Source: Haliotis cracherodii
Lineage: Eukaryota
Length of the DNA stretch: 64,000 bases
Assembly (NCBI RefSeq): GCF_022045235.1
Contig: NW_027266308.1
Span: forward strand, 52,390,001-52,454,000
Direction: 5' to 3'
Position numbers and translations under genes: made by a program. The notes under the pieces were generated by a model. That model was not told the origin of the DNA. It made no database searches and saw only the letters and a program-made list of their open reading frames with translations. How positions within the stretch are numbered: position 1 is the stretch's first letter; each line of letters begins with the position of its first letter. Positions 354 through 64,000 of the stretch are shown piece after piece.

Positions 354-800
354 ATGGCGTCAAAAAGAATGACTGGAAAGATTGCCTTGTGGCAGAAACG
401 TACAGATGAGCACCAGGAGAAACAGATGATAAACCCCTTCTCAGAATGGGAGGGTGCATCCCATCGATCAGCCCTCAGCAAAGATGATGTGAACTATGGC
501 GTACCCATCGCAGGGTCGTCTACAGAGAGGAGAGGTCGTCAGGCTGGGAATCTGATCAGCGGAGAGATAGTGGAGCTGTGTCATGTGATTGCTGAGATTG
601 GCTGCAGACAAGATGATGGAACATATATAATTACTTTTGGGCCTTTATTTGAAGCTTACACTAGAATCTCCAATAAACTTGTGGGTATGTTGATGCGCGC
701 TCGTAAACAACATCTGATTCAGTTTGAAGGTGAGATGCTGTTTCAAAGGCGGGATGATGATGTGCCGATTACTCTGCTGAGGATTCCAGACGAAAACTGA
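354..800 (+). CDS. ABRA: Actin-binding Rho-activating protein-like (Costars domain), single coding exon
   Basis: 148 aa with QMINPFSEW...YGVP..GS.TERRG and C-terminal FGPLFEAYTRISNKLVGMLMRARKQHLIQFEGEMLFQRRDD (Costars). Kozak accATGg; splice acceptor ttttatag ends at 319. Confidence 0.9.
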   Translation: MASKRMTGKIALWQKRTDEHQEKQMINPFSEWEGASHRSALSKDDVNYGVPIAGSSTERRGRQAGNLISGEIVELCHVIAEIGCRQDDGTYIITFGPLFEAYTRISNKLVGMLMRARKQHLIQFEGEMLFQRRDDDVPITLLRIPDEN

Positions 801-41415: not shown

Positions 41416-42171
41416 CCTAGGACTAAAGAATAAAGAATGTTGGATAATCAGACAAAACGATAAACGTTTGTCAAACTGCAATGAAACCTGGATAAATGGA
41501 TATGTTTGGGATTTTAGTAAATAGGGTGGGTAGATTTGTTGGCCTTCTTGGAATTTTAAGGCCTTAGTGATTCATTTTTATATTTCAGTATGTATATATA
41601 TATATTATATGATAGTGATAGGAGTTAGTTTCAATTTCTCAAAACTTTAACATGTTCATACATTGTAAACTGCAATCAACAGTATCAAATATGCATGCAA
41701 AGAATTTACTTTTTACAATTGCAAAATAGAGAATGTACAAAATAAGGAAATAATAATGGTTTAACACACACTATAAATGTTGTAGGCTTCTTGACTGAAG
41801 CTTATTTAACCTGTTTCCAACCAATTTTTATATAATAAAATAAATATTGGTTTCAGTGTTATTCCATGTAGATTTCTAATTGCATCTACTAACAGTAATA
41901 TTACAATGTCTGTTTTCCCCCCTTCAAAACATAATAAAACAAACATGATTGTCATGCAGGATAACAAGCTGTCCTATATCTAGTATTCTCTAAATCTAAT
42001 CTGGATGAAGCCAGAACCTACTATGATGTGACGAATGACACAACACTGACCTGCAGCACATCACTCTGATGTTATCAGTAATCTTTATTACTCAGATTGA
42101 CATGCACACATAATATCCAAAATCTATGAGGTAGCTCACAGAAGTATTCCTGGAGTGATATTATGACTTAC

Positions 42172-42962: not shown

Positions 42963-45900
42963 ATGGCCTCAATATCACAATCCTCTCGATCACATCCCTC
43001 CTCCATAAACAGAGAGGGGGAGGAAACTATTGCTATGTTGTACAAGAGCTTCAGCAACAATTTACTTCTGGGACAGTGGGAGTTGGCACGAGCCTGCCTT
43101 TCTCAACTTAGCAAGGACTGTCATCAAATTGGCGTTGACATCAAGGATGTGTTACGCAAAGTAGCTGCATATCCATTTGATTCAAGGTATTTCATGCTGT
43201 TGAATTTAACATATTGATACAGAGAAGTGTATTATATTTCAAAGAATATGGTTCCCAACTGTCAGTTTGGCAGATATCTTATGATATTTGTACATACACC
43301 TTTATATGCTGTTGTTGATTAGTGTTAATTAGTGATACTCATGAAGCATGAACCTATGATAAACTGTTCAATGACTTTCTCCATTTACACACTCACTGCC
43401 AAAAGAAATGGGAATACCATACATGTTGGTTCATATGTGAAGACTTACTCATATTCAGAGATATATAATTGGTTTGATGCACAAACGAACATACTGGTAT
43501 GTTGTATGAACTGATGCTCATGAACGCATCACATGTGATCAGGGTGCACCATTTGTCTTGTACAGGATTGGCATGTAATGTTTGGAAATCATGTGCAGCA
43601 TATCGTGATAAGAATAAAGACACTCTGTGGTAACACTTGACTGATTGTTAGTTTTGTCATTATTGGCACACCTTGGAAACATCTCTTCTTAACGTTCTTA
43701 CTTCTCTATGTGTTGCTACGGTTCGTTTTTCTTTTGGCGGTGAGTATATTTCCCAACACATTTAGCCAAGTATTAATTTGGATTCATATGTACATGCTCA
43801 ATGTAAGTGGATCTACAGTCTAGACATCATAGGCAGTGCCATGTGTGAAACTGAGACACTGGTACTGTATACATTAATTAGCATAGTCTGTAACTGCATG
43901 ATTGATCATAGGATTTCAATTAGTAGACAGTTGTTAAGTGGTTATTGAATAACTTCAATCAAACCTGCTAGTATTGCCTACTGACTAGAGACTCATGCCC
44001 CTGTACATGTTCTCAGGTTCTTGTAGTTTGAAAGAAAAACATATCCCTGGGGATTAAAGTGGAAATATGAGATCCTCAAGTAACTAATCATGCTAATGGC
44101 AAGATAGTATTGATGATCACCTACCTTATTTCATTTGTGATGACGTTAGCACCATTAGAATATTCAATGAAAAAATAGTTTTATAGGTTTGTATTATTTG
44201 TAAGGTTTATTTATCTACAGTTATGGTTCAGCGTCGCTCAGCAGTCCTCATGAATTGTCATGGTTGTGTCTTCTTGAATGCAAACAACTGGAAGACTGGA
44301 GTGAAGATAAGGTACATAATTAGCACGTTCAATGTGACCAAAATTGGCCTGAGTTTGTCAATGATTGTTTTACCTAGATGATAAGTTTTTCCTCTTATCA
44401 TGCACATGCATTAACTAAGTGATTGATTGTTAGAGCAACTGTAGTCTTTTGTATAGTTATGAAAGCCCAGTTTAGCATGTGGAAGACTTGTTAGATAGAT
44501 CAATCATTTCCTGCCATTTCCACTATATTACACACCATAACAATGCCTAGTTTACCTAATGTAACTTGTGTAAACTGTAATGAGGTCTAAAACAAAAATG
44601 TTTCATTTGCATTAAATTCAACATTTTGGTCATTTATGTTTTGTAGCATGTGATATGTCACTGTATATTAAGTGGAACTTGTAATTGCCATTTATGTTGA
44701 TAATGATGTCAATAAGAATGCAGATAAAATCTTTTGTGTTGTCATCTAGAATTGAAGTAATTGAATGTTTGGAACTACACATCTTCCCGAGGCAAGAGCG
44801 TCCACTAGCCTTTTTATCAAAGTCTTGTTTCCACCCTTGCCACATCGAGCCCTCTTTTCTGTGCTAAAGATGATTGGACTATTGCACATATCGATAATCC
44901 AATCAGGGAACGTTTCACAAAATCAACATCCACGACTGGTACACCTTCGTATGAAAGTGATTTACCACAGTCTTTGTTGACACAAATATGTCTTTTTCAA
45001 GTTTTAGACCCCCCAGGAATTGCCTATGTATTTTTGTCAGGGATGAAATGACAAATGTTTTCGTTATCTGATCAACGAGGTTGTCGCCTAATGTAGTCAC
45101 CGTTTTTGTGAAGCTATATGGGATAAGAACAGAGATCATATTGGATATCGCTTTTCATTACAAGCGCACAACTCATGATCTTCGCGGGGTGGCGCCAGGG
45201 TCAAGCCAAGAAAAGTGGCCTTGATGTGGCAAGGGTAAAAAGAAGGCTTTGGTATAGGCTAGTGGGCACGCTTGACTCGGGAAGATGGGTACTACATTAC
45301 TTTCTTTTATGTGAATCATGATAAGTAACAGTTTCCTTACTGGATGGTGACAACTGATGCTGGGCTGTGTTTTTTACTCTTTTCAGAACGAATCCCCCAG
45401 TTACTTGACGAAAGAGATCCAGTTTAGATTGCTTCTGACCCAAACATGTCAGGAGGCAGATTCAGAAGTCATTAAAGTAAGTGATCTTTCTTATAGCTCA
45501 TTGGAATTAGTTTCTTTGGATAATTCTGCTCATTTGTGCAACTGGGGAATTTCATGATTTATTAATGATGCTTTTGTTCGTAAATGTTTAAATGAAACTT
45601 TTGACCATCCATATCATAATTTTCTATAGGCTATCTTGCCAAAGACCCGGGTTTGATTCCCGACATGGGTACAATATGTGAAGCCCACTCTGGTGTTCCC
45701 TGCCGTGATATTGCTGGAATAGTGCTAAAAGCGACGTAAAACTCACTCAGTCACTATAGACTATCTCAAGTTATTTCTTGTCTTTAGGAATGTATTGTAA
45801 TCCTTAAGTCCAGCAAGCAAATCACAAAGACTATCTGGAAGGTTTTGTTTCATTGTCTATCATGTTTATATGATGGAATGAAATAGAGTAATTAATACAT

Positions 45901-48900
45901 ATACTGTAGGTGTGTGTGTGTGGGGGAAGAAGTTACAATGACAATAATCATATTGAAAAATCATCCCATTAACCTATTTTGAGTAGTATATTTTAATCTT
46001 TGTATGCCCCAAATCTTTAACTTCTAACATTAGGGTTAGGACAAGGAACCCTTGATTTTCATACTTAATTCTGAACATAGCTACGGTATGTGTCAAATTA
46101 AGCTTGTATTTTTGGCAGGTAGTTCTGAACACGGCCATGTTATTGTAAATCAAAATTCTATGCTGACCTGGGACATTGATGGCTGCTACATGAGCTTCAC
46201 ATGAAATGTTATGTTGCAGGACCTATATCTGTGCTTCAAGCACATCCACTCACCTCCACCAACCTCATCACAGAGAGCATCTCCTCTGTCCAAGGGCACT
46301 CTGACCCACATTCAGCATGTTCTCCTGACCTGGCCATCACAAGGGTTTGCCCTCATAACATCCCTCACGCCTCCTCAAACACATGAGAGACAAGAACATA
46401 AACAACAAAAACAACGGAGTAATGAAGAACGCAACAGCGAAAACCTGCAAGGTGTTTACCTCGACTGTATCAACAAACACCTCGACACCCTGTCTAAGTG
46501 TTCCAGCAAGGAAAGGACAAAATGTGAACAGATTTTTGTCCAGGTATACACCCTGCTGTCGTTTTACAACCCGGTACCGTTTTGGAATTACTCTCAGCTG
46601 CAGCAGTTGTTCACACGGTTGCTGCAGCTGTCTCATCAACATGACTGCAGCATCAGGAAGGACAAGATACTTTCTGTGTTGCTGGGAAGGGATTGCCCAT
46701 ATCTGATGGAGACATTTTGTAAGTTAGACCACGAACTGAGTCTGGCTTCAAAAGTCAAGCATGGTGGAACTGATCGTCTGACTGATAGTGAGAAGGATGT
46801 GATTCACTTGTTTCGAGGTCTCGACAGTGAAGAATGTTGGAGGAACCTCTTTTTGCTTTCCACTCAGAGACAGAGGCATTTCCTGCAGATGGTGTTGGTC
46901 AGTATCTTATAAGCTAAACATTCATTCTTATTCAACCTCTCCAGCTGTAGGTCATGTACTGTCTCAAATATAGAATCTCACCCCAGTGTCTTTTGATATT
47001 GATTTATCATCCAAACCTGGCTCCCTCAGGAGATATCGCTTGGGTGAGATCAAACGATATCTACGCTGTAGATATCGCTGCAATGAAATTGCATCACAAT
47101 GCTTTGCAGACCATTGTGATATCATTGGTTACCATGATGTCACAATCAAATGACATCACTAATGGCTCTGCTACTGAAGCTGTTAGCAGTACTTTTTACA
47201 CATAAGACACTGCTTATTACTGTCTGCAAACTGAAAAAGTTGGAAGAATGATGTTGGATGATAAATAAAATCTCACCCTTGTGTCTTTTGATATCAAATA
47301 TATCAACACTCGTTGATAAAAGTGGAAAAAATCCTCGGCAAGCCTCAGAGTTTTTGCACTTTTATCAACTCGTGTTGATATATTTGATATCAAAAGACAC
47401 TCTGGTGAGATTCTCTATATATCAACATCAGACGATAACAGAAGCTTGCCAAGGAGTTTTAAACATTATAGATAAGTTTTGATATATTTAATATCCGAAG
47501 ACATTAGGCTAAGATTCTCTATTTGCTGCGGTATTATCAAAAATGTTTCTTGAGTGTAAACTGTACAGCTAACCAGTCTGAGTGAGAGAGATGAGTGATG
47601 TCATTTGATTGTGATGTCATGACGTCATTATAGTCTGAAAGGAATTGTGATGCAATTTCATTTCAGCGATATCTCCTGAGAGATGTCACTTGATCTCACA
47701 CAAGTGATATCTTTTGTGGAAGCCAATTTGGATGGTGAATGTTCTTTTCTAGAATTGGGGGTATTGATGAATTTCAATTTCCGTTAATGAACTTCATTCA
47801 GTTCATACCCGTGAAGATCCGGGGTAATATAGATCTTCAGCAACCCATGCTTGTCGTTAATAGCAATTATGCTTGTCGTTAGAGGTGACTAACAGGATCG
47901 GGTTGTCAAGGTCGTTGACTCGGTTGATGCATGTCATCGTATCCCAATTGCATGGATCTATGCTCATGTTGTCAATCACTGGATTGTCTGGTCCCAACTC
48001 AATTATTTACAGACCACTGACATACAGATGGAATATTGCTGAGTGTGGCGTTAAACAACAAACAAACCAATCATTTTGTATTTTATTTTTATGAATTCTT
48101 CTTTACCTCTGATAAATTTATTGAGAAAAGTGTATTGATATTAATATCTGTATGAAATTCCTATGGTCCTTACTTTCACTAAAGAGGTAAACATTATAGC
48201 CCCGAATCACTTTAATGTTTCCTCCCGCATGCTGTGATATAACAGCAATACTGTTCAAAGGGGCCTCACTCACTCTGTAAACATGGTAAAGAAACTTAAT
48301 ATCCCCTTGCTTCTCTTTAAGGAAACCTCCCTTAGCTTGATACGATGCGGACAATTTGAAGAGCTTAAGGACTTACTGAGACCGACAGAGTTACACCCCC
48401 TTAAGCCAGTCGTCTTGCTGCTCGGCTGGTCACTGTGTACAACTTCAACAGTTGCCAGGAAACTGTTGGATGTTCTTTGGGATGAAAAGGTATTTACACA
48501 AAACAATGTTCTAGATAATTGTATGTGAACAAGGCATAGTGGGGAAAAACATATTTTGGCTATTAGTTGCTACTACAGTTAACATTTTTCATATACTAAT
48601 TCCAGTTGAGAAGTTTTACATTTGCTGCAGACTTTCTTGAATATCAGCCTCAGAGAATGCCTAGATAGTCCATATGTGTTATTTTGACATGTTTGGGCAT
48701 AATTGTGAAGATATTGAACTCCATATGGATTCAGTGTGAAGTAAGCAAATCGTCAGGAATTTCTTTCACTCATTAACAGCCTGAATGTCTCAAATGATGT
48801 TCAGTTCCAATATCCTGCCTTTCAGCATGTTTAGGGCTGGGGTGAGTCCAAATTTACTATGCCGGTACCTGTTCACCTATTACCCGCCCCTACCCGGGTA

Positions 48901-51900
48901 CCTGCTGTAGGTCATAAGTTGGGAACAAAATGTTCAGTTTGGGAATTGTTTTACTGGAGCCTTGGCAAAAAGTGTTTAGATATAGTATAAAATGATCTGA
49001 TTGTGTATGTTACACCATGATAACTCATAAAAGCACTTGATGTGGATCTAATTATTATAGGGTAACTTAGTATAAATGTTATACCATGATAACTACTTGA
49101 GTTGACTGAAACTCAAACATACTGTCTTTACTCAAACACATAAAAGTCAGAAGAAATGTGCCCATAGTCAGAAAGAATTGCTAACATTTATAGCGACGTG
49201 TACTAGTGTAACCATGGAATTATAATTATTGTCATTTAACCATATATCACATGACTAACCACGGGTCCAGGTAGTCTTGTGGGTACCCAGGACCCTAGTC
49301 AGGACCCACACGACCCTAGTACCCGAGTTACCCGTCCCAGCCCTACTGCCTGTTTAGATCTATGGAAATACTGTCACAATTAGGCGTACTTCTTCCTATT
49401 CCGTATTGTATCGGAAATCATCATTGGAAAGTTACAGAAAATGATACATTTTTTTCCGAAATTTAATGTTGTTTAGAATTACTGATCCTTATGATGATTG
49501 CCCCGGGTATTGATTCCATGTGTTTAGTTGCAACCCATGTTTGATTTTGACATTTTGTGGAATTCTGATTTTGGTTATCATATATTAGAACTCCATCAAC
49601 TCATTGTTTATATTCCAGACACCGTGTCGGCATCCTGCCCTGGCTGCTGGCTGCCGCAAGTTGGCATACCAAATTGACCTCATTCAGTGGTGCCTTGATA
49701 GAACCAAGTAGGTGGAGCTGTTAACCGTCCCATACATACAGGATATTATATGAGTGTTCATGTCATACCATACTATGTTTGACCGCCTCCGTGGTCTAGT
49801 GGTAGAGCGTCTGCCCGGAGAGCGGAAGGTTCGGGGTTCGATCCCCGACCGCGTCATACCAAAAGACGTTAAAAGATGGTACTTGTTGTTACCCTGTCTG
49901 GCGCTCGGCATGAAGGGGCTAAAACAAGGACTGGTCGGCTCGGAGTCAGTATACTGTGTCTGAGTGGGGTATTCATGTTAAACTGTGGCATGGTATCTCA
50001 GTGTGCTAGCACTATAAATCAGCATCAGTCCGGACTAGTACAAGCAGCCACACAAACACACACACGTACATGCACGTCGCTATATAAGTGCAATAATCTT
50101 GGACGCGATGTTAAACCCCATTTCACCTCACCTCACCGTACTATGTTTACGACACAAGTCTTTTAATACTGGAATTTGGGCACGAATGTCGTAAACATAG
50201 TATGATGTGAAAAAAAAAATAATGTTCTATTTATTACTGAAGAAGATGTCTACATACAGAGATGAATTTTAGTGCAAGTCGCAACAGCAGCAGAACCACA
50301 ATTTGTCAAATGGCGTCAACAATCTTCAGCTATGACGTGTCTAGTGTGACGTCATTCCAACCTCACGTCACAATAAGATTTGAATGATGTCAACAATCCC
50401 ATCCGGATGACGACAACAATACACTGTTGTCTCGTGACGTGATATGACCCAAGGGCACGTATGATTTATATGAACCCTGATATGTGTGCCTTCGTAGGTT
50501 ATAAGCCGTGATACACACTGCTGCGTGTATTGATAACAATATTTGAGGTTAGCTTGTGGTGTAAGCACAAATGTTGGTTACATGTCTGATGCAAAATTTA
50601 TGAAACAACAAATTGTCAAGGTGTAGAGAAAGAATTGTAATTCATGCTTGTGTTTAGACAACTCAACAGGTTATATTTGATAGTCAAATGATGTGAATGA
50701 TATTCTTGAGAATTGAAGAGTAAATATGTTTTTGATCATGGGAGATAATTTGTATGTATTGAGGTTTGATAATTACATAGAGACTGAAAACCCGCCGTGC
50801 TGGTTTGTGCAAATATTTGTGTTCATCCTGAAGTGATGTTATGGAAAGCCATCAGATGAGTATTGTGGCTGAGTAACATGTAATACAACTGTCAGTGAGG
50901 GTTTACATTTATTTAAATACTTTAGTTTATATACTTAATTATTATTTTGGGGTATGATGAGTCTTTGAGTATTTTTGATGCCCAGAAATAGGAAAGTGCT
51001 TTATTTGCAAGAAAAGACTCATTCTCGTGTAAATGAAGTGATTAGTAAGGATGAGATTGCTACTAACCAACTGACTTCACGAGTTGATCCTGGCAGTGGA
51101 ATGACATATGAAGTTTTAACAGTTCTTATTTCTATGATTGTTGAGATGTTCAAAGATGGTACTTGTTGTTACCCTGCCTGGTGTTCAGCAATAAGGTTAT
51201 AAAATAAGGACTGCTTGGTTCGGAGTCGGTATAATGTGAAACTGTGGCATGATATTCTGCGAACTAGCACTATAAAACCGTCTTTAAGTCCACACTATAC
51301 CTGACAAACAACTACACACTCACATGCTTACACTTTACTACGTGAGTGAAAACATATTGAACATGCTGTTTAACCCCATTTGACCTTACCTGTGAATTTT
51401 GTGTCAGGTATTATTATTTAACAGTAAGAATTCTCACATATTTCAATGTTATTCTTGAAAAGTTTTCTAATGCTTTTTGTAAGAGGATTGGGTGGCCAGG
51501 CTTGCTGACTTGCTTTATGGATGTCCCCATATCCCAGTTTCCTAGATCGATGCTCATGAGGTCAGTCACTGGAATGTCTGGTCCAGACTCGATTATTTAC
51601 AGACCGCCGCCATAAGCTTGAAAAATTGCTGAGTGTGGCGATAAACAACAGACAAACCCCCACCACCATCCCCCACCCCGCTCCCTCACCCCCTCAATTA
51701 TAAGTACTCCCGAGCTGTGAATGAGCCGTGTGTGTTGTCAGACCCCTGCTGGAGTCGAGCGGTGTTGGTGTAACTAACCAGGAGAGAGCGACACATCTAC
51801 TGCAGGGCCTGGAGGCCCACTCAGTGTTATTTGTCCTGCACCAGTCCACAACGCTTGCCTCCCTTGACCAGCAGGAGGTGCTCCAGCTGCTCCAGAACAC

Positions 51901-54900
51901 GGCCAGGAGGCAGGACCCAGGTCAGTCCGGACTGGACATACACCATAACCCAGTGACATTTTAACTGGAACCGAAAACAACATTACTTGATATATGTATT
52001 TTGAAAGATAAGATCAAAATGACACCTATTCTGCTGATGTCATCTCATTTGACACCAGACAGAATGAGAGAGATAAGGATAAAAGAATCTGTGAGGACAT
52101 CGAGATAAATTGTATTGTACAAAGTTGATAAAATGTCAGGTATTGACTGAATGTTTTCTCTTGTGTATCCTAAATTTGAAAATCAGTGTTTATGATAATG
52201 TTGCCATGGTGCTGCATGGCAGCCTTGATGGTTTTCGGCAGATCTAATTCTTGTCCAAACATTATGTAATGCTTTTGAACTTTTGGATAAATTGCGACAA
52301 TGCTTGCAATTTCTATTACCTTCTATGTCCTTCAGAGTCCAATAAGAAACAAAAGAGTGTACGTTTCAACATTGCTGGACATGACCAGAATGGTGAGAGT
52401 GAAGCAGACGACGGACCAGATATCAGTATTGAACAGCAGCGAGATCTCTCTATTTATCGCAGTTTCTGTGCTATCAGGAACATCATGGATGCCATCGCCT
52501 TCTGTTCTGACAATGCAGATCTTGAATTAATGAACCCTATCTGTGTGAGGAAAGCCCCTCGGCCGCGGAGTCTCTCGAAATCCTTCACATGCGAAGTGAG
52601 TGTCAGCAGCAGTGAGGGAGAAGACAGCAGCAGCCAGTACCCTCAAAACATCAGCAGGTCTGTCTCGGCCAACTTCACCAGGTCTACCTCGGAAAACATC
52701 AGTCAGGTGATTGATAAGGACAGCTTTCAGGATCTGTATGATCAGTGTGTGACTCAGAAACTGATGGACACCCAGAACCACCTGAAGAAACTACATCCGT
52801 TAACATACAGGGTTGAAGTGCTGGAGGATATATTTTCTTTACTGTTTGCCACACATCGGGATGTCCAGGAATGTTCCAACACAGCTGATTTTGATAGTGA
52901 TGAAGGAGGCGAGGATGGGAGCAAGAGGAACAGCCAGGAGAATATGTCCCTCAACACTTCACTCATTTCAGAGGAGGATACATCACCACTGGCCCTGAAG
53001 ACGGATTTTTACTCAAGCCAGCCACCGCCACTAAGTAGTCAAAGTGTCCCTGCAAGTGGATCAGGTTATGATGAACCATTCCGGGAAGATCCCCCTGTAC
53101 AAGTATCTCAGTCTGTCCACAAGAAAGTCCGAGTTCCTCAGGATCAGTTGGCTGAGGAGGTGAAGAAGTCAGCATCTGCTCTACTCAACTCAGACAACAC
53201 CAAGATGACGATCAACTCCACTGGGAAAAGAGCTCATGGGGCTGGAGAGGAAATAGATAAATGTGAGGTTTTCAAGCTAGGATTTCTAGCAAATGAATAT
53301 CTTGTACGGGACCTTCTTGCAATGCTGAAGGAGTCCCTTCTTAATATCAATGCTGTCAGATATAAACTGACTGGACAGAAGTCAGATTTAGGTAAAAAGT
53401 CGGAGCAGAAGGGAAACTCAGATACACTGCATGTTACTCCTGCCATGGAGGAGGCTCTTACACAGATTGTCAAGTCAAGTGTTGTTCCAGAAACATTACA
53501 GAAGAGGCTGACCAGACTCACCCAGTATATACATGAGGCGCAGTGGCGTTTCCAGCTGGTGTCACATGACCAGTTGCCCAAGCAACCAGGTCAGGTTCTT
53601 CAGAGGCCGGTGTTTGTTCCTGGAGATGATAACTTTGATGTATGCAGGTCAGATGGATGGAGAAAGGGAAGATCTAGAAGTCCAAACAAGGACAAGAGAT
53701 CAGGTATTTGTATTAGCATTCTCAAGATGAGGGTTTCCACAGGTTAGAGAAGGTTAGCGAAATTCAAGATCAGGGTCCACTTGCACAAAGCGATCTAGCG
53801 CTAAGACTATCGTAAGCCTATGTAAGGGAGTATGGGAGTTCCAATCATCTTAGCACTAAGATCACTTTGTGCAAGCGGGCCCAGGTAATGTTTCAGCACT
53901 TCGATAACAGTCAATAAAAAATGGTATTTTCATAAAATTCAAGGAGTTTTATAATTTTAAATCGGTGAATACTTTTATTGCTCAAGTATTGGCTTTACTC
54001 TATGTCTTCTTTTGATTTTAAATATTGACCTCTGTTCATAAAGAAAGTAGATACTGATTGAATTTGAATTGTTTTCCATTTTGAATATTTCAAATCTGTA
54101 GGAACCCTTTAAACTCATATTAATGACTTGCCAAGTTGGATATTTTAAGCAGAGAGGCATACAATTGTATTCTATAATGGCAATGTTTGGATGGCTTTCA
54201 TGACAGCTTCTACCTTGTTTACAGCAACTGATACATTACCAGCATACCACAGAAAGAAAGTATTATTTTGATCAATAGCCTACTTTCACAAACATTAGCA
54301 GTAAGTGACAAGATGTTTTTATTTTGAAGCATCACCGACGTTGAACGGAGAGAATGAGATGCAGGGTATCCCAGGTGATGATCGAGTCCGACATAGGCGA
54401 TCGTCTGGTGTGTCTAGGGCAAGCTTTAGCACTCAGAGCAGGCTAGTGCAAGCAGGTCTGGAGATAATTCCACTGATGCTGTCAACACCAGACACCCTGC
54501 TGACTATGAGCTTATCAAAGGGAAACTTTGCACAGGCAGCCCAAGTCATCAAGGTGAGTTTTGGTTGGAAATGTTTGAAGTAAATCTGTGATGGAAAGAA
54601 TTAATTTTAACTGTTGTTGTCTGAAGAACAGACACATCAACTGTAGTACTTAATAGATATGTCAACTAGACAACTGGGAGATTGTCCCACAATGTTAAAC
54701 AACTCACTGTGAATTGTAAGTCTGGATGAGCTAACGGTTGAAGTCAATGCTGCACACTGAGGATGTCAAAGGGGTGTCTTATCCTATCTCACACTATGCA
54801 TTTCTTCCTTTTTCTTTTGATATTTGGAAAACATGCTTGAAACAAGGTTTCCGTTTCTAAAAACGAATCAGCGAACACATCCTAGCATCACCATGGTCAC

Positions 54901-57900
54901 CACCTAAATGGGTCACGCACTGAAACTCTTGTTTTCTTTAGACTACAGAACTGGATTCTGTTCTGCTGATCTTCCTTTTCATTATGAACACAAATGCTAC
55001 AACAAAGCATTAAATAACTGTATTGATAAATTGTGTGCTAATAAAACAATACATGAAATTAGTCACATATATTTTGTCTCTGAGGAATATGCCTTAGATG
55101 CTTTATATAGCCTAGGAAAAACTTCAATATCAATATTTTAAACTTTTAGTAATCGTGCTTGAGAAAGTGTTTTCTTATCAAAATACTCTTTCACAATGGT
55201 GATTTCAGTTCAATTAGAGGTAGGTTATAGACTCCAGAGTGTCATTTTTTTAGTATCTTCTAGGGTCACAGTAGAAGAAATATTCATTCTGATTTCAGTT
55301 GTTTAAGCTTGAGAAGTCAGAAGCCGCAGAAGAGGTGTCATTTTCTGAGGCTTATCACAAAGCTGCAAACAAAGTGGCAACCCTAGAAAGTTCAACAAGG
55401 GAGAGAACTGGTGCTTCATCTAACCTAGGCAGACCTAGCATGAAGGCCTTGGCTAAAGTAGCAGCTGCAGGAGTTGCTTCAGCCTCGCTCTCAAATGTGA
55501 CAGATGAGCTGTTGTCTGGCCAGATTATTCCCAGCTTGCCAAAGCCAAAGACCACCTCAAACATGCCTGAGAACATTATGAGATTATTCAAGGAAATTGA
55601 TGTCAGTACTGCAATACTTTTAGACCTTGTGTGTACCTCATGTAGGACATGGGACTTGTGCAATAAACTCTTTGATATTATCAAGACTAAAGTAACCATT
55701 GACAATGAGATGAGTGAAGACATTGGCTGGAGGGACAGTGCTGGTCTGAGTACCTCGAGCAGAAAATCAAAGAGCGACGGTGGGCTGAAAGGGGCACTAA
55801 CATTCCTTAGACAAGTGGAGAAATTAGTGCATAGTTTTGCAGATGATTCTAATATTGGGAAAATATTCACAGATGGTGGGCCAATGACATCGTCAAAGCC
55901 AAGCCTAGAGAGGCAAATGAGAACTGGAACTTGTCCTCTTGTATCTGAAAAAGTGAACACTTTTGTTAGTGTTGTTGAGGATGTTAGAAGATGGGTTGAC
56001 AAAATTAATAGGGCCTTTGAAAATGTGAACAGGCGTGATAGTTTGCAGTTGCCAGAAACCTCACCTCAGGTGTCTCCCAAGGACTCATCACCCAAGTTCA
56101 AGGACTCATCACCTAAGGCCAAGGACACACCAAGGTCATCTCCAATACACAGTGCCTACAAGCAGTTTTGTACAGCACTAGAGAGATGTGCACCGAAAGG
56201 TGGCCTGGTGTACCTCCTCAAACGGTGAGATCTAGTTCCATTAGTGTCATCTCAGAGGTTGTATGTTTAATATTTGTGTGTGGTATGCTTGTCATCATTT
56301 TGTAGTTAAATATTTCGTAATTGTAAAATTGATTTTGAAGGTTAACTACACTTATGTGTGTCTGGTATGTGTATGTGTTACTTTCTGTTTGATGATTGAA
56401 ACCACAAGAGACTGCCAGAAACACAACTCATTACCAGCATCATCTTCCCGAGGCAAGCGTGTCCACTAGCCTATATTAAAGTCTAGTGTCTACCCGAGGC
56501 AAGCGTGTCCACTAGCCTATATTAGTCTAGTTTCTACCCGAGGCAAGCGTGTCCACAATTCTATATCAAAGTCTAGTGTCTACCCAAGGCAAGCGTGTCC
56601 ACAATTCTATATCAAAGTCTAGTGTCTACCCGAGGCAAACGTGTCTACTAGCCTATATCAAAGTCTAGTGTCTACCCGAGGCAAGCGTGTCCACTAACCT
56701 ATATCAAAGTCTAGTTTCTACTCGAGGCAAGCGTGTCCACTAGCCGATATCAAAATCTAGTTTCTACCCGAGGCAAGCGTGTCCACTAGCCTATATCAAA
56801 GTCTAGTTTCTACCCGAGGCAAGCGTGTCCACTAGCCTATATCAAAGTCTAGTTTCTACCCGAGGCAAGCGTGTCCACTAGCCTATATCAAAGTCTAGTT
56901 TCTACCCGAGGCAAGCGTGTCCACTAGCCTATATCAAAGTCTAGTTTCTACCCGAGGCAAGCGTGTCCACTAGCCTATATCAAAGTCTAGTTTCTACCCA
57001 AGGCAAGCGTGTCCACTAGCCTATATCAAAGTCTAGTTTCTACCCAAGGCAAGCGTGTCCACTAGCCTATATCAAAGTCTAGCTTCTACCCAAGGCAAGC
57101 GTGTCCACTAGCCTATATCAAAGTCTAGTTTCTACCCAAGGCAAGCGTGTCCACTAGCCTATATCAAAGTCTAGTTTCTACCCAAGGCAAGCGTGTCCAC
57201 TAGCCTATATCAAAGTCTAGTTTCTACCCGAGGCAAGCGTGTCCACTAGCCTATATCAAAGTCTAGTTTCCACCCGAGGCAAGCGTGTCCACTGGCCTAT
57301 ATCAAAGTCTAGTTTCTACCCAAGGCAAGCGTGTCCACTAGCCTATATCAAAGTCTAGTTTCTACCCGAGGCAAGCGTGTCCACTAGCCTATATCAAAGT
57401 CTAGTTTCTACCCGAGGCAAGCGTGTCCACTAGCCTATATCAAAGCCTACTTTCTACCCTTGCCAGATCAAGGCCACTTTTCTTAGCACGATCCAGGTGC
57501 CACATTACGTAGAGTTGTGCCCCTTGTAATGAAAATGAGATATCCAATCAGATTGTTGTTCTCAGATCTCGTATGATTCACAAAGATGGCGACTACCATA
57601 GGCGATGACCTAGTCGATCAGATAACGAAAACATTCCTGACTTCACCCCTGACACAAAACATAGGCTCTGTGGGTTTTAAATATGGAATATTTGTGTCAA
57701 CAAAGACAAGCAGTGGTATATCACTTTCATACAAATGTGTACCAGTTGTGGATGTTGACTATGTGCAATAGTCTAATCATATTTAGCACAGGAAATAGGG
57801 CTTGATGTTGCGAGGGTGGAAACAAGTCTTTGATAAAAAAGACTGCTTGAAGCTCTTGCCTTGGGAAGGGCAGAATTGGTCCCAAATACTCAATGCTAAT

Positions 57901-60900
57901 GGTAACAGCAATTTAATGGTGGATTAGATGGACGAAATGGCTGCAGTCAAGTGACATGATTGATACTCAGTTTCAGCCACAGGTCACCCTGCTTCATCTC
58001 TTTGGATGGAACTTTGTAGGCAGGCACAATACCATCTCTTTTCTATGACTATCATAGCGCTAAGTTTGCTTTGTGGATCAAATTGTCACAGGGGATTTAC
58101 TTGACTCTGTTGTAACTGCTGTGCAGAATGTGTCCCTAAGGCTTGCCAGGAATCTATGATCGTGGGTTCATATTCTGGTTTACTCTGATCATGTTTCTAG
58201 TTTTGTCAGCAACATATCCGTGCTAGTGGATCTCAACAGGATGGTAGACATCTAAAACCTGCATCACTTTGGGCTTTCCTCCCACATGAAGCTGACACAC
58301 TCCGATGTAACTGAAATACTGTTCAAAGCCATGCTAAACCCAACTCACTCAGCCTTACAGCATGGTACTGGGGACCAATTCTAACACAGAAAGACGGAAA
58401 CTACATGCCTCAATCTTGTCAATTTGACCTGTAATTGAATCTGCTTGCTTTTTCCATTAAAGTTAAAGTATGGGAGTTACAACTGTCTTAGCACTAAGAT
58501 CACTTTGTGGAATGGGTCTCTGGTCCTTGGATGGATGACTACGGTCCAGGCATCAGGGCCAACTTGCACAAAGTGATCTTAGCGCTGAGACTATTGTAAG
58601 CCTATGTTAAATTATGGGAGTTACGATTACCTTAGCGCTAAGATCGGTTTCATCTGTGAAGATCAGGGTTAGAATAGGTCTTCAGCAACCCATGCTTGCC
58701 GTAAAAGGTGACTATGCTTGTCGTAAGAGGCAACTAAGGGGATAGGGTGGTCAGACTCACTGACTTGGTTGATGCATGCCATCGTATCCCAATTGCGTGG
58801 ATCGATGCTCATGATGTCAATCACTATATTGTCTGGTCCAGACTAGATTATTTACAGACTGCCGTCATATAGCTGGAATATTGCTGATTGCGGCCTTAAA
58901 CAACAAACAAACAAATTGTGCACGTGGGTCCTGATCTTACTGACTCCCACAAAGCAATTTTTGCACACTGACTATTGCAACTTTTCCTACTTCTTCACGT
59001 GGTAATGTTACATTTACTTGGTCAGTTCAGGCCCTTTTCACCAAGCCGTCATAGTGCTACAACTGTTGTAAGTCTGTGTTGAAGTATGGGAATTACCGTA
59101 GCCGTACTGTTGCTGTGTGGAACAGGGCCCTGGTACTTTTAGAGGGAGTTGTTTGCAGACCTCAGATGTGTCTGTATTGTTGCTATGGAAGTAAACCTCT
59201 TCCGTTTGTTTGCTGCCTGCTTATAGCAGTGATGTCATGGATTGTTTCACCTTCCAGGTATGGCGTGGAGTCATCTCATGAAAAGAGTTACCTTCATAGT
59301 CTGTATGAACATGTACGGGAACTTGCAATACTTGTAGCAGAATGTGACGGCAGAACCAAAGGTGAGCATCGACAGTCAACAAATCACTGATCATGTGTTT
59401 TGAACATTATTTAAAATGATAGTTTATGACATGAAATAGTGATATATATATCATTCATTGTGAAGATGGGGTTACATGTGGCCCTGAAGGGCAGAATTGG
59501 TCCCAAATACTCAATACTAATGGTAACAGCAATTTAAATATGGATAAGATGGACAAAATGGCTGCAGTCAAGTGACATACCCTGATGGCATGATTGATAC
59601 TCAACTTCACTGATCATGTGTTTTGAACATTATTTAAAATGATAATTTATGACCTGAAATAGTGATATATATATCATTCATTGTAATGGTGGGGTTACAT
59701 GTGGCCCTGTTATGTGAGAAGCCACAATTTGTTGTCTAGAGTTGTGTCCCTTACGCAGCCCAGAACCCAATGGTCATGGGTTTGAATCCCATATTTGCCC
59801 TGATTATGTTTCTAGAGTTGTCAGCATATACTCCTGCTCATACCTTTCACCAAAGTCTTTCCTTTGACATCAAGCTGAAATCTGGTGACATAACTGAAAT
59901 ATGATACTGGTCAAAGTGTTGTTCACATGGTTAAACCAAACACGCGCCAACCAATTGTAATTATTTTACAATGCTGTGTAAGTGTATTAGTAGTAGGGGG
60001 GGCACGGGTGGCCCAGTCGTCTAAGGTGACATGATTCGCTGTGCAGAGTTGCGTCCCTTGGGCACGCCTGAAACCTATGATTGTTGGTTCGAATCCCGGT
60101 TCGCCCCGATTATGTTTCTAGGTTTGTCAGCACCGTACCTGTGCTAGGGGGTTTCACCGAAGTGGTAAACGCCTGAGACCTGCATCACTTCGGGCTTTCC
60201 TCCCACATTAAGCTGACACGCCATGATATAACTGGAATACTGTTAAAAGCGGCGTTAAACACAACTCACTCACTACTAGTAGTAAAGGCAGCAGCAGGTA
60301 TTAAATTTAAGTATGATGATTTCATTATATGTGCAAGGATGAGAACATGTAGTGTAAATCAGAGGTGAGGTGAAGTGAAATGCGGTTAAACACGCCTTCA
60401 AGATTGTTGCACTTATATAGCGATGTGCATGTTCGCAGCTGCTTGTACTAGCCCGGACTTATGTCGATTGATAGTGCTAGCCCACTGAAATACCATGACC
60501 CAGTTTAACATGAATACCCAACTCAGACACAGTATACTGACCATGCTGACTCCGAGCCGACCAGTCCTTATTTTAGCCCCTTAGTGCCAACCACGGAGGC
60601 GGTCTTGTAAATCAGAAGCCTCTGTAAATTTCATATTCGGGAACACTATGTTTGATGGAGATCTGCACAAGAAGAAACTGCAGTCTGGGTAATTGCCCAT
60701 GGCATGTGTTCATTGTGGTATTAAAGTAGAGACATGTTTTGCATCTTTCAGAGACCCTGATCGTGCCACAGAACTACTTTGAGATGTTGCGGGAAGGACC
60801 AGTCACCATCTTGGGAAGGCTGATGTTTGCCAAGAGAATGATTCCATCTAGGTAATTGATACATGTTAATAGTGCGTGTGCGTGTGTGTGTGCGTGTCTG

Positions 60901-62505
60901 TCTGTTTGTCTGTCTGTCCGTCTGTACTCTTTATTCGTAATATTGTTAAAGGTAAGCACTAGCAGAGAGTTCATTTTATTGTGATATAGGGGTGGAATAT
61001 ACTTTGTTTTCAATGATACATCCTGGTGTTAGGCACAAGCTCTTTTCTGTTCCAGATTGGAGACTGTGGCCCAAAAGTTGAGCCTCAACCTAACACACAT
61101 CATAGTCCACAGCTGCTGCCCCCGAATCCCTAGCAAACACCTGCCACCCTTGCTTGCCTTGCAACTGAACCAAGGTGAAGGTCATCCTGTCATTGTATCT
61201 ATGTCTGGTACGGGTAACTCAGGTACTCGGGTCGGGTGGGTACTCAGTAGGACCCGGGTACCCAAAGGACTACCCGGGTAGTACATTTAGACTCGTCCCA
61301 GCCCTAATTGTATCCTACAATTCAATTCAGTGTTTCTTTACAATTATGTTGATATAGATATTCTGACTTCTATTTTGTTGTTGTAAGTTACTGTAAGATT
61401 GAACTCTGCTTTTTTCAGATTATGAAGTATTTGGACCAAGGATAATTTACAACTCCAGTCAGCCTCCACCCCCATCCCCACCGCATCCTGAAGAGATTGT
61501 ACGCCATCTATTGGACAAGCTTATCACTTTAATGAAAGGTGAAAGACTTGGAGAGTATATTTTCTTCACCAGGTTAACCTTAGCGCATTTGCTCATGAAA
61601 ACACACAGTGCATGTTTTGGATTTTCACCTGATGGAATTACACTTAGCCATGGCATCTTTAGGAATAACGACTATCAAGATTTGGGTCATTGCTTGCAAA
61701 AGAACCTCTGACTCCAATCTGCATTTTATAACTGTGTCTGACCTATTCTTGTAGACTGCAATATCATTTTTAATTTGAATGGTTAAAAATACTCAACTGG
61801 CCTACAAATTATATTTGTAAACTTCCATTTGTTCTTATATTTTTACGTTAACATTGTTACCAATGCTAACAAACATTTCAGCTGTAATTCATAGTGTCTA
61901 CAGGTTGAAATTGAATAATAAATCAGTAAACATGGTCATGCTGGGATGTGTTTTTCTTGAAGTGTTTTTAAGAAGCTGGAAACTTACATGTTTCCATATA
62001 CCGGTATAAGAAAAAAAATGCATACTGTGAGATAGGATAAGTATATAAGAAGAAAATTTATAAGAACATTTCTATTTTTTTAGATAGGCCCTGTGAAACA
62101 CAATACATCAATTCTAATAGAAAAGTTGTAGTTCCACAACCTTGGTGCAACACATTCCATGTTGGCCATGTTGACAACATGTTTACCTGGCTTCATGAAG
62201 ACTTGATTAGTAGCTGCAGGAAATGTTGAGATCATCTGTTAGACTTAGCTAAACAATTCCCGATTTTCTTTGTAGATACTGCTGCTAAGTCCAATGCACA
62301 GAGTATATTTGACACATCATGTGCCAAGCTTGCTATGAAATCAGAAGAGTACCGAGACTTGTTGACCTCCACCAGCCAGCTACAGGAGGTCGACCTCTCG
62401 CAGCTTCACACCAGGCAGATGTCATTGTGCTTCTATGCCAATCTCCAGAACCTCATGACCATTCACCTGTTCCTGCACCAGATCTGGCAGAGGACTCTCA
62501 ATCAG
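42963..62505 (+). CDS. ZFYVE26: Spastizin/ZFYVE26 (SPG15), 5' part, continues beyond the window; exons 42963-43186, 44221-44311, 45387-45476, 46220-46897, 48322-48489, 49619-49707, 51742-51920, 52336-53703, 54330-54553, 55299-56224, 59258-59361, 60752-60851, 61056-61174, 61419-61538, 62276-62505
   Basis: N-terminal GQWELARACL, PHELSWLCL, PVVLLLGW, LEAHSVLFVLHQ, YRVEVLEDIFSLLF, EAQWRFQLV and IIVHSCCP resemble spastizin; all listed junctions are GT-AG and phase-consistent. Confidence 0.85.
44780..45287. mobile_element. Mutator-like MITE (CATCTTCCCGAGGCAAG TIR)
   Basis: 9-bp TSD ggaactaca/ggtactaca; TIRs at both ends. Confidence 0.8.
46969..47740. mobile_element. Foldback/MITE cluster
   Basis: TIR-like tagaatctcacc..gtgtcttttgatat versus atatcaaaagacac..ggtgagattct (47388-47420); inverted copy of 47007-47100 at about 47640-47735. 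Confidence 0.6.
48832..49345. mobile_element. hAT-like MITE (TAGGGCTGGG TIR); relatives at 2463-2822 and 61200-61306
   Basis: tagggctggg...cccagcccta; the internal segment 49190-49290 is the reverse complement of about 2500-2585. Confidence 0.7.
49781..50137 (+). mobile_element. tRNA-derived SINE family C (Meta/RUDI-like core); other copies at 10165-10591(-), 17075-17388(+), 35613-35750(-), 51150-51390(+), 60364-60604(-)
   Basis: tRNA head ggtctagtggtagagcg...ggttcgatcc; core gtcataccaaaagacg...gactggtcggctcggagtcagtata; (cacct)n tail; TSD c(a/g)tactatgttt. Confidence 0.88.
53772..53883. mobile_element. About 110-bp palindromic MITE (PIF/Harbinger-like); copies at about 16676-16775, 58555-58932 and 59029-59130
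   Basis: gggtccacttgcacaaagcgatc...gatcactttgtgcaagcgggccc. Confidence 0.7.
56441..57868. mobile_element. Mutator-like MITE (inverted relative of 44780-45287) whose left end is expanded into a 46-bp tandem array of about 22 copies (56446-57460)
   Basis: Unit CCCGAGGCAAGCGTGTCCACTAGCCTATATCAAAGTCTAGTTTCTA, period 46; 57460-57868 is the reverse-complement homologue of the 44780 element. Confidence 0.85.
59997..60273 (+). mobile_element. tRNA-derived SINE family D; partial copies at about 885-1060, 11943-12127, 21355-21470, 23050-23190, 30745-30960(-), 58090-58350, 59710-59940
   Basis: Head gtggcccagtcgtctaagg...ggttcgaatccc; tail aagctgacacgccatgatataactggaatactgttaaaagcggcgttaaac(actc)n; TSD ta(t/c)tagtagta. 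Confidence 0.85.
61200..61306. mobile_element. 107-bp hAT-like MITE with perfect 8-bp TSD
   Basis: attgtatc at 61192-61199 and 61307-61314. Confidence 0.8.
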
Positions 62506-62589
62506 GTATGTCAGCCACGTCTGTGGTCAGAAGAAATATTGTCTGTGTCTTGGAAATCATAGAAATGCCTGTTGGTGATTCCAGGACAT

Positions 62590-62846
62590 TTGGTTGGTTT
62601 GTTGTTTGATGCCGCACTCAGCAATGTTCCAGCTATATGACGATGGTCTGTAAATAATCGAGTCTGGACCAGACAATCCAGTGATTGACAGCATGAGCAT
62701 CGATCCACGCAATTGGGATCAATGGCATGTATCAACGAAGTCAGCAAGCCTGACCACCCGATCCCGTTAGTCGCCTCTTACGACTAGCATAATACGGCAA
62801 ATATGGGTTGCTGAAGACCTATTCTAGCCCGGAATCTTCACGGGTC
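62590..62846 (-). mobile_element. SINE family B (V-domain-like core, no tRNA head seen); other copies at 15609-15845(+), 16535-16855(+), 17880-18137(-), 19700-19830(-), 21115-21352(-), 26135-26368(+), 35236-35462(-), 47807-48070(+), 51480-51657(+), 58652-58915(+), 63951-63990(+)
   Basis: Shared acccgtgaagatccgg...gcttgtcgtaagaggcgactaa...gctggaatattgctgagtgcggcgttaaac(aaac)n. Confidence 0.85.
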
Positions 62847-62974
62847 GATTCCAGGACAGACATGATCCAAACTGACCCAGATGGTTACAATGAGTGACCT
62901 GTTACAACTGTGGGACACTGTGCCTCAACATGGATCATTGCTCATGCTTTCAACCCCTGGTTTTTCTGGCCCTT

Positions 62975-63855
62975 GTTATGTCACCCCCCACCCCCAAATG
63001 AGGGGAGACATACCGGTAGTGCTTTTGGCTAGGTTCCCATTGGCATTGGTGTCAGCATTCACATCCTATTCCGATCCATAACTTATAAAACTGTTCAGTG
63101 TTTTCAAATGAATCTTGGGATATGAATTGCTCATCAACTTAACTGGCGCCTTTTGCTTTTTTGAATTCTGTCAAAAGAAATTTTGTGTGTGTTGCCATGG
63201 AAAGAATTTCGACTTAGTCTCAAACGAGGGTATGGTTCATTTCTGGGACAAAATTTACAAATGTTTTTTTCTACAAAACTGAACATAAGCCTCACTGGTG
63301 CCTTCTGCTATTTTTTAAATTTCATTTTTTTATGTTTCCATGGAAACAATTTGGACTTAGTGTCACACAATTCTTGGCTTTTTCTGAGCCATGACTCTCA
63401 AACTAATGAATATTTTTGCATGAAATTATACATGTGCAATGACCATATGCTCAACTTAGGCCTTTTTAATTTTCTAATTTGTAGTGTTTCCATGGAAACA
63501 ATTTGGACTTAGTGTCACACAATTCTTGGCTTTTTTCTGAGCCATGACTCTCAAACTAATGAATATTTTTGCATGAAATTATACATGTGCAATGACCATA
63601 TGCTCAACTTAGGCCTTTTTAATTTTCTAATTTGTAGTGTTTCCGTGGAAACAATGTGGATTAAGTCTCAAACAAGTAGTGTTTGTTTCATCTCAAAACT
63701 CTACAGTTAATGAATATTCTTGCATGAAACCATTATCTTTCTAGGCTATGATTTGCATATTGTTTTTCAGATTTGAAAACATATTTACAGTCACATCTTA
63801 GCTAATGTATCCAAAAAAGAGGGGGAGACATGTTTTGAGTAAAAGCACATTCTAG
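62975..63855 (+). mobile_element. Helentron-associated (HINE/pearl-like) element with internal tandem repeats of about 152 bp (63338-63660)
   Basis: 5' ttatgtcacccc...ggggagacata; 3' gggggagacatg...ttctagt; near-identical internal duplicates. Confidence 0.55.
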
Positions 63856-64000
63856 TGTTACAATTGTTGTCAGTAGTGCAGAGCAACATTGACTCACTCA
63901 CTCCACTATAATTCCACTTTGTGAGATCTGATAGAATCAAAAGTTAAACACCAGTGAATATCTGGTTTAGAAGTGGTCTTCAGCAACCCTGATTATTTAC

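What the first reader, a model, noticed from the sequence alone, without database searches (positions are those of the whole stretch)
61419..62505. DUF547-like domain spliced in frame into spastizin
Seen: the last two exons read ...HPEEIVRHLLDKLITLMK...AMKSEEYRDLLTSTSQLQEVDLSQLHTRQMSLCFYANLQNLMTIHLFL. This matches from memory the DUF547 start motif (SEEF..Y.....ELQ.VDL..L...E.LAF.IN.YN.L.IH) of glutaredoxin/DEP/DUF547 proteins. I do not recall human ZFYVE26 having this domain. Inference: a lineage-specific or vertebrate-lost domain that could link DUF547 to AP-5/lysosome biology.
Basis: partly seen in the sequence, partly recalled or inferred. Interest (0 to 1): 0.7.

Follow-up and report, generated by a model that had tools for sequence, protein, structure and literature searches.

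The report
Vertebrate-lost DUF547 domain inside invertebrate spastizin
In abalone and many other invertebrates, from sea anemones to amphioxus, the lysosome-coat protein spastizin (mutated in a human paraplegia) carries an extra 310-residue domain of unknown function that the vertebrate versions lack; it has lost its family's conserved cysteine pair, so it likely serves as a docking surface rather than an enzyme.

Summary
Confirmed and larger than reported. The two exons begin a complete ~310-residue DUF547 fold, spliced in frame into the genome's only detected ZFYVE26 (spastizin/SPG15) gene. It runs over seven exons (five beyond the window) and about 25 codons of an eighth. RNA-like contigs from three studies include these exons; one reaches the first FYVE exon. 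A 98%-identical abalone protein scores DUF547 at 51.7 bits (cut-off 27).

The domain is not lineage-specific. All 45 invertebrate-type proteins tested carry it (molluscs, nemertean, annelid, hemichordates, echinoderms, amphioxus, cnidarians); 0 of 79 vertebrate-type proteins do, lamprey included. They keep a short linker there (human ~1235-1298).

The predicted fold is confident (pLDDT 88.6) with no solved relative found. The family's C-x4-C pair (36 of 37 bacterial members) is kept in 0 of 45, although 35 of 45 have a shifted cysteine in that loop. Best reading: a non-catalytic docking appendage on the SPG11-SPG15 coat (inferred, 0.55).

Databases already call the domain automatically; my literature searches found no paper describing the fusion. 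Ecdysozoans, tunicates, sponges and non-animals were not sampled. The scan had not noted this elsewhere.

The parts
42963..43186 (+). First coding exon of ZFYVE26/spastizin (ATG at 42963)
   Evidence: Open 29-exon model; 99.9% identical over 2,478 aa to a public abalone protein
44221..56224 (+). Nine exons of the N-terminal alpha-solenoid (44221-44311, 45387-45476, 46220-46891, 48322-48489, 49619-49707, 51742-51920, 52336-53703, 54330-54553, 55299-56224)
   Evidence: contig pieces lie on 46220-56226; human 8yad_C 2-615 and 694-1240 match the family profile
59258..61174 (+). Three solenoid exons just upstream of the insert (59258-59361, 60752-60851, 61056-61174); the last carries the CC anchor shared with vertebrates
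   Evidence: their lengths plus exon 61419-61538 (443 nt) fit the gap in contigs X9 and X1 exactly
61419..61538 (+). First exon of the DUF547 module: short strands, an xIxN motif and the first helix; phase 1 start
   Evidence: aligned to canonical DUF547 by hhalign, probability 99.7
62276..62505 (+). Second exon of the module; holds the start of Pfam PF04784
   Evidence: Pfam E 0.006 alone; lies in contigs of X1, X9 and X13
62506..64000 (+). Intron leaving the window. The module goes on in G000:C45 at window-extended 64940-65064, 66104-66183, 67023-67123 (cysteine loop), 68165-68257, 70711-70882 and the first ~25 codons of 71388-72352; FYVE exons at 79268-79446 and 80440-80570; TPR_ZFYVE26 at about 96,500-99,000
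   Evidence: summed exon lengths match the contig distances

Best explanation
This is the abalone spastizin (ZFYVE26/SPG15) gene, whose N-terminal helical scaffold carries a whole DUF547 domain that vertebrates lack and that likely works as a non-catalytic docking appendage of the SPG11-SPG15 lysosomal coat. Shown: in-frame splicing, the whole-domain match, presence from cnidarians to amphioxus, absence in the vertebrates sampled, and loss of the family's invariant polar residues. Inferred: a DUF547 of the eukaryote/cytosolic type entered a loop of the solenoid once, before cnidarians and bilaterians split; it lost its thiol chemistry but kept its fold; it packs on the solenoid and offers a new surface (the YxxGQLGxxS hairpin is near-invariant only in spastizins) to a partner protein or a neighbouring coat unit; and it was deleted once on the vertebrate stem, before lampreys split from jawed vertebrates.
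For: Splicing: contigs X1 (1961 nt) and X9 (3177 nt) run from upstream solenoid exons through the module into the downstream exon; X13 (5493 nt) runs from the module to the first FYVE exon. Three of four distances match the model exactly; the fourth is 12 nt short, at the spot where P0001 is 4 residues short. Domain: Pfam 51.7 bits; hhalign probability 99.7, E 4.6e-26, 265 columns. Range: precomputed PF04784 in 39 of 41 invertebrate-type and 0 of 79 vertebrate-type rows; own HMM 45 of 45 at E<1e-3 against a best of 0.5 bits in vertebrates. The span between two shared anchors is 350-457 aa in invertebrates and 75-115 aa in 69 of 79 vertebrate rows. Single origin: spastizin modules form one side of a branch, SH-aLRT 100. 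Constraint: identity to Nematostella is 30% in the module and 29% in the downstream solenoid. Loss of invariant residues, bacteria (n=37) against spastizins (n=45): Y 37/0, E 36/0, H 36/0, first C 36/1, second C 36/0, N 36/0, while core F, N, P, W, D, F stay. Both stand-alone DUF547 genes of this genome keep C-x4-C-P. Packing: the 755-residue model has pTM 0.81, and both flanks superpose in one alignment on human 8yad_C 1140-1532 (Z 8.6, rmsd 5.8, 300 aligned).
Against: No partner is identified and no binding was tested. No activity has been shown for any DUF547 in the papers I saw, so 'lost catalysis' is inferred from conservation alone. 35 of 45 modules keep a cysteine one or two places after the first lost one. 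The canonical set is 37 bacterial proteins, about 30 of them from one phylum, plus two abalone genes. The Z of 8.6 to 8yad_C is within the range common for helical repeats, and ten other chains ranked above it. The runs are only guessed to be RNA and differ from the window by about 2%. The trees are quick searches with a long spastizin stem. No spastizin from outside animals, or from sponges, ecdysozoans, tunicates or hagfish, was retrieved, so the date of entry and the number of losses are open.
Confidence: 0.55

Rival explanations
1. The module is a thiol, redox or metal sensor. The cysteine that has shifted within the same loop would still react and would tune coat recruitment or assembly.
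For: 35 of 45 modules have a Cys in the loop (26 at +2, 12 at +1). Canonical DUF547 is fused to a glutaredoxin in this genome and in plants (PMC13621322, passages). 5 of 18 bacterial loci examined have arsenic-metabolism neighbours: TIGR04283 in three, ArsM-like plus ArsS in one, an arsenate-reductase-like gene in one (75 of 118 ORFs scanned).
Against: 10 of 45 have no Cys in the loop, and its place varies. The second Cys is Ser in 44 of 45, and the His, Glu and Tyr that go with the pair are gone.
Confidence: 0.2
2. The module is a second membrane or lipid-binding site that works beside the FYVE finger.
For: DUF547 recurs in peripheral membrane proteins: with DEP in class IV glutaredoxins, behind the C2 domain of Entamoeba PTEN1, and in Arabidopsis AT2G23700 at the polar plasma membrane without a transmembrane helix. 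Human recruitment needs coincidence detection (PMC7814351, passages).
Against: The modules are mostly acidic (net charge -24 to +6, median -11), and no basic residue reached 90% conservation. In the three examples cited, other domains or partners could explain membrane binding.
Confidence: 0.12
3. The module is a tolerated passenger: an old insertion kept only because it must stay folded, with no task of its own.
For: Vertebrates lack it, and human SPG11-SPG15 forms its W-shaped complex without it (bioRxiv 2024.06.14.598999, section 5). Most conserved positions are core positions.
Against: It is kept in 45 of 45 proteins across seven phyla. Exons 61419 to 70882 form a 921-nt block, phase 1 to phase 1, that could be dropped in frame, yet no retrieved invertebrate lacks it. 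G1606, Q1607, G1609 and S1612 (P0001 numbers) are kept in 43-45 of 45 and include a one-residue insertion absent from the family.
Confidence: 0.12
4. Artefact: a separate DUF547 gene nested in, or mis-joined to, spastizin.
For: No single contig spans the ATG to the FYVE exons, and the runs are labelled RNA by guess.
Against: Contigs from three studies include the module exons without introns. The same architecture appears in independent annotations from seven phyla.
Confidence: 0.01

Closest known systems
Human spastizin / SPG15 / ZFYVE26 (PDB 8yad chain C; SPG11-SPG15 cryo-EM, bioRxiv 10.1101/2024.06.14.598999)
   Same: Solenoid-FYVE-solenoid plan. The family profile matches human 2-615, 694-1240 and 1299-2527 at E 0; FYVE and TPR_ZFYVE26 are above cut-off.
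   Different: About 3,170 against 2,539 aa. Profile positions 1398-1795, which hold the module, have no human match; human residues ~1235-1298 stand in their place.
Class IV glutaredoxin-like proteins (Grx-DEP-DUF547); one lies in this genome at G000:C34:55.674-55.688 Mb
   Same: Same extended DUF547 fold over 265 columns. The spastizin branch joins on their side of the unrooted tree, apart from 30-33 other bacterial rows (SH-aLRT 97-99).
   Different: They keep H-F-x3-C-x4-C-P, DxxE and YDWxxN and have a glutaredoxin domain; the spastizin module has lost these motifs and sits inside a solenoid.
Bacterial DUF547 proteins (PF04784), some beside arsenosugar genes
   Same: A spastizin-module HMM finds 36 of 37 at E<1e-3 within that small set.
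   Different: Stand-alone, many with signal-peptide-like N-termini (read by eye); cysteine pair in 36 of 37.
Entamoeba histolytica PTEN1 (phosphatase-C2-DUF547)
   Same: A DUF547 fused to a phosphoinositide-linked protein (bioRxiv 2021.11.29.470399, two passages; its text says DUF457, its legend DUF547).
   Different: A C-terminal add-on to a different host protein; sequence not compared here.

Membership tests
ZFYVE26 / spastizin | FYVE finger between two alpha-solenoids | tested here: met
   PF01363 E 3e-18 at 2415-2472 of P0001; FYVE exons in frame in the model
ZFYVE26 / spastizin | C-terminal TPR_ZFYVE26 (PF25569) and colinear homology to human SPG15 | tested here: met
   E 8.2e-40 in P0001; the only genome hits are at this locus; profile to 8yad_C E 0
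ZFYVE26 / spastizin | Binds SPG11 and PI3P; recruited to late endosomes and lysosomes | not testable with these tools
   Shown for the human protein; assumed here by orthology
DUF547 (PF04784) | Score above the Pfam cut-off across the model | tested here: met
   51.7 bits against 27, positions 5-125 of 125 in P0001; 4 of 10 long relatives scanned passed the cut-off besides P0001, 4 matched below it, and 2 N-terminally truncated ones had no match
DUF547 (PF04784) | Extended fold beyond the Pfam core (N-terminal helices; C-terminal WY-x-x-DF region and last strand) | tested here: met
   hhalign probability 99.7 over 265 columns; model pLDDT 88.6, pTM 0.89
Canonical (cysteine-pair) DUF547 | H-F-x3-C-x4-C-P motif | tested here: not met
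   Pair in 36 of 37 HMM-selected bacterial proteins and both abalone paralogues, 0 of 45 spastizins; a shifted Cys in 35 of 45
Canonical (cysteine-pair) DUF547 | Invariant N-x-Y-N tyrosine, DxxE glutamate, terminal YDWxxN | tested here: not met
   Y 0 of 45, E 0 of 45, W 5 of 45, N 0 of 45
Class IV glutaredoxin (Grx-DEP-DUF547) | Glutaredoxin and DEP domains | tested here: not met
   Neither appears in the Pfam scan of P0001; both are in the separate C34 gene
Any solved fold | Structural match of the module to a PDB chain | tested here: inconclusive
   Foldseek best E 2.2; VIA best Z 5.5, rmsd 4.9, 116 aligned

The most novel reading that the evidence does not exclude
The ancestral animal SPG11-SPG15 coat had an extra regulatory arm: a DUF547 pseudo-enzyme, or single-thiol sensor, taken from the glutaredoxin-DEP-DUF547 lineage, that couples lysosome reformation to a partner or to redox or metal state. 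Vertebrates deleted it, so human SPG15 is a trimmed coat whose residues ~1235-1298 mark a lost regulatory site, and the invertebrate protein is the first handle on DUF547 inside a known pathway.
Probability: 0.3. Interest if true: 0.72.

Novelty: new variant of a known kind. Interest (0 to 1): 0.5.

Why it matters
The SPG15 papers I saw deal with vertebrate proteins, and its domain plan is given as solenoid-FYVE-solenoid. This shows that plan is the trimmed one among the animals sampled: most sampled phyla carry a further folded domain, conserved as well as the scaffold next to it. It marks a site in human SPG15 (~1235-1298) that once held 300 more residues, useful for tagging and for reading variants there. 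DUF547 occurs in bacteria, plants and animals, and I found no solved structure or shown activity for it. An apparently inactive copy in a well-studied complex, beside intact paralogues in the same genome, points to the family's likely functional residues (Y, E, H, C, C, W, N). The limit is that Pfam already flags the domain in these proteins and no function is shown.

Tried and rejected
Homologue search with the 308-aa exon and 'longer' found nothing; it covered only 540-2000 aa. A search with the Nematostella mid-region, meant to reach sponges, arthropods and tunicates, returned 3 cnidarian-like proteins, so it says nothing about those groups. Nine of ten divergent fragments looked up had no name. 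The genome-wide PF04784 search missed this locus and found only the two paralogues; single downstream exons do not score. The exon after the module has no PDB sequence match. No solved structure matched the module; this does not show the fold is new. The vertebrate linker helix may be a relic of the module's first helix, but hhalign gave probability 0.7, E 0.076: not supported. The 52 bacterial loci were selected by the cysteine motif itself, so they were left out of the conservation counts; five were used in the trees and in the 44-row HMM. Introns of the module and of the two paralogues did not coincide by eye. The careful tree did not finish; both trees are quick searches. One search used 16 of 45 spastizin rows; one search used 12 and dropped six bacterial rows (two long branches, four near-copies). 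Exon skipping could not be judged, as the joint tables were filled by repeats and cut. No run was on record as RNA. Atlas hits for the module scored 0.77-0.81, leads only. No complex prediction was sent, as no specific partner is claimed.

Full report
1. Observation. The exons at 61419-61538 and 62276-62505 are present, bounded by AG/GT, joined in phase 1, and read as quoted. The second alone matches the first 33 positions of Pfam DUF547 at E 0.006, below the cut-off. The window ends in the next intron, so I fetched 140 kb downstream (G000:C45:52454001-52594000) and built a 29-exon model from ATG 42963 through the FYVE finger: 2,478 codons, no stop, 28 of 28 introns GT-AG. It is 98.1-99.9% identical to three public abalone (Haliotis) proteins and 89% to a fourth. 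TPR_ZFYVE26 hits only this locus in the genome.

2. One transcript. Contigs of 4 of 22 listed runs were laid; RNA is a guess for all four. X9's 3177-nt contig covers exons 54330 and 55299, exon 62276, the last module exon and the large exon after it; X1's 1961-nt contig does the same from 55682. X13's 5493-nt contig runs from exon 62276 to the first FYVE exon. I matched contigs between the two calls by run, length and depth. Model and contig distances are 1593/1593, 572/572, 445/445 and 2652/2640. The 12-nt difference lies at the end of exon 70711-70882, where X13's piece stops early and P0001 is four residues shorter. X3's listed pieces did not bridge the module. No contig spans the ATG to FYVE.

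3. A whole domain. P0001 scores DUF547 at 51.7 bits (cut-off 27; residues 1538-1691), FYVE at 66.1 and TPR_ZFYVE26 at 136.4. Homology runs beyond the Pfam core: separately aligned profiles of 45 spastizin modules and 44 other DUF547 proteins match over 265 columns, probability 99.7, from an xLN motif near residue 1465 to the last strand near 1781. The window's own model scores 62.2 bits against the 44-row HMM; of 200 shuffles four scored at all, at most 2.7 bits. AlphaFold2 gives pLDDT 88.6 and pTM 0.89 for the module. No solved chain matched it clearly.

4. Distribution. A search with the C-terminal 645 residues found 529 proteins and listed 120. Precomputed PF04784 is on 39 of the first 41 rows (37 named invertebrates, 4 unnamed); the two without it, Argopecten and Mya, carry the module by alignment and HMM. 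It is on 0 of the other 79 rows (77 named vertebrates including lamprey, sharks, bichir, gar, teleosts, coelacanth and turtle; 2 unnamed). Adding Owenia, Saccoglossus and two unnamed cnidarian-like proteins gives 45 of 45 at E<1e-3; the vertebrate best is 0.5 bits, or E 0.32 with an HMM of the spastizin module itself. Macrostomum and Patiria fragments match the last third of the Pfam model below cut-off. The alignment shows one block missing in vertebrates: 350-457 residues between two shared anchors against 75-115 in the 69 of 79 rows my pattern captured. Human 8yad_C matches up to 1240 and from 1299. With cnidarians, spiralians, ambulacrarians and amphioxus positive, one loss on the vertebrate stem is the simplest reading (inference). 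The 409 unlisted hits were not seen. Whether the domain predates animals is open: the nearest Atlas cluster for the C-terminal part (score 0.93, commonest taxon plants) shows no DUF547, but its representative is only 1178 aa. An unchecked scan note describes a ~2,000-aa Naegleria spastizin. PMC3744948 (passages) says Drosophila has SPG11/SPG15 without AP-5; I could not retrieve that protein.

5. What changed. This genome has two other DUF547 genes: a glutaredoxin-DEP-DUF547 on C34 and one on C11, partly reconstructed. Both keep C-x4-C-P. In 37 bacterial proteins picked by the Pfam HMM the pair is present in 36; in spastizins the first is C in 1 of 45, the second in 0 (S in 44). The family's Y, E, H and N are in 36-37 of 37 bacteria and 0 of 45 spastizins; W in 36 and 5; R in 37 and 26. 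Core positions stay, and spastizins have their own near-invariant set (Y1603, G1606, Q1607, G1609, S1612, H1557, P1707). Against a fully inert loop: 35 of 45 have a cysteine shifted by one or two places, Cys1665 in P0001. The module is as conserved as the solenoid after it (30% and 29% to Nematostella) but less than FYVE or the C-terminus. In two quick trees the modules form one group (SH-aLRT 100) on a long stem, on the side of the two abalone genes and a few bacterial proteins that look cytosolic. The trees are unrooted and name no donor.

6. How it likely works. In human, SPG15 and SPG11 solenoids coil into a W-shaped coat, and FYVE sits on long linkers in a pose that blocks PI3P binding (bioRxiv 2024.06.14.598999: passages and section 5; 'DUF' occurs 0 times in its main text; its supplements are closed and might hold alignments). 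Recruitment needs PI3P and Rag GTPases (PMC7814351, passages). The insert lies about 500 human residues before FYVE. A 755-residue model with both flanks has pTM 0.81. Its top Foldseek hit is 8yad_C (E 0.009), and VIA aligns model 10-752 to human 1140-1532 (Z 8.6, rmsd 5.8, rank 11), which fits a continuous solenoid with the domain looped out. I had no coordinates and could not inspect contacts. I infer a folded, non-catalytic appendage that offers a conserved surface to a partner (0.55), ahead of a thiol sensor (0.2), a lipid-binding site (0.12) and a passenger (0.12). Hints on the ancestral family are leads only: fusion to glutaredoxin (PMC13621322, passages, which reports no biochemical characterisation of those proteins), arsenic-related neighbours at 5 of 18 bacterial loci (75 of 118 ORFs scanned, no background measured), and membrane-associated hosts (passages). 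The first seven module exons form a 921-nt phase 1-to-1 block, which would allow an in-frame deletion; vertebrate intron positions were not checked.

7. Novelty. The domain call is already in databases (one fragment is named 'DUF547 domain-containing protein'). I found no paper on the fusion. DUF547 gave 28 papers, 26 listed, none on spastizin by title; PF04784 gave 3 plant papers. DUF547 with FYVE gave 4, 3 listed: two are gene lists (passages) and one is the PTEN paper. The 40 listed of 224 spastizin papers have 0 occurrences of DUF547. (listings) added nothing. Subscription journals, including any journal version of the structure paper, were not searched. Verdict: real, a new variant of a known protein, function untested; interest 0.5.

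Noticed in passing
G000:C34:55,674,000-55,688,000 (L112, L113): A glutaredoxin (CPHC)-DEP-DUF547 gene, the class IV glutaredoxin plan described for plants, intact in a mollusc with C-x4-C-P.
   Followed up: partly
G000:C11:17,092,800-17,096,400 (L115): A second canonical DUF547 gene; one exon's 3' end is repeated several times in the following intron. Upstream exons were not found.
   Followed up: partly
window 39086-41571, minus strand: Protein-kinase exons, NEK2-like by recall, head to head with spastizin about 1.4 kb from its ATG; a shared promoter is possible.
   Followed up: no
window 10823-11938, plus strand: A 372-codon open frame holding a whole kinase domain without introns (Pfam E 2.5e-54); possibly a retrocopy or element-borne kinase.
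   Followed up: no
window 309-797 and 23828-24079, plus strand: A Costars-domain gene (E 6.7e-31) and an MNLL (complex I) subunit-like exon (E 6.5e-6, just below cut-off).
   Followed up: no
window 37566-38496, minus strand: Overlapping frames that resemble a broken DIRS-type retrotransposon by recall; no Pfam match.
   Followed up: no
window 56443-57459 and 63312-63675: Intronic tandem arrays: 46-bp unit x 22.2 (95% matches) and 153-bp unit x 2.4.
   Followed up: no
L002:6868-6882 (end of last module exon): A 12-nt in-frame length difference between the window and run X13; P0001 is four residues shorter at the same spot.
   Followed up: partly
L023:1083-3797: A bacterial protein with a trehalase-like glycoside hydrolase region fused to a eukaryote-like DUF547, near an arsenate-reductase-like gene.
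   Followed up: no
L031, L037, L056, L065: Bacterial DUF547 genes directly beside TIGR04283 arsenosugar glycosyltransferase or ArsM-like/ArsS genes.
   Followed up: partly
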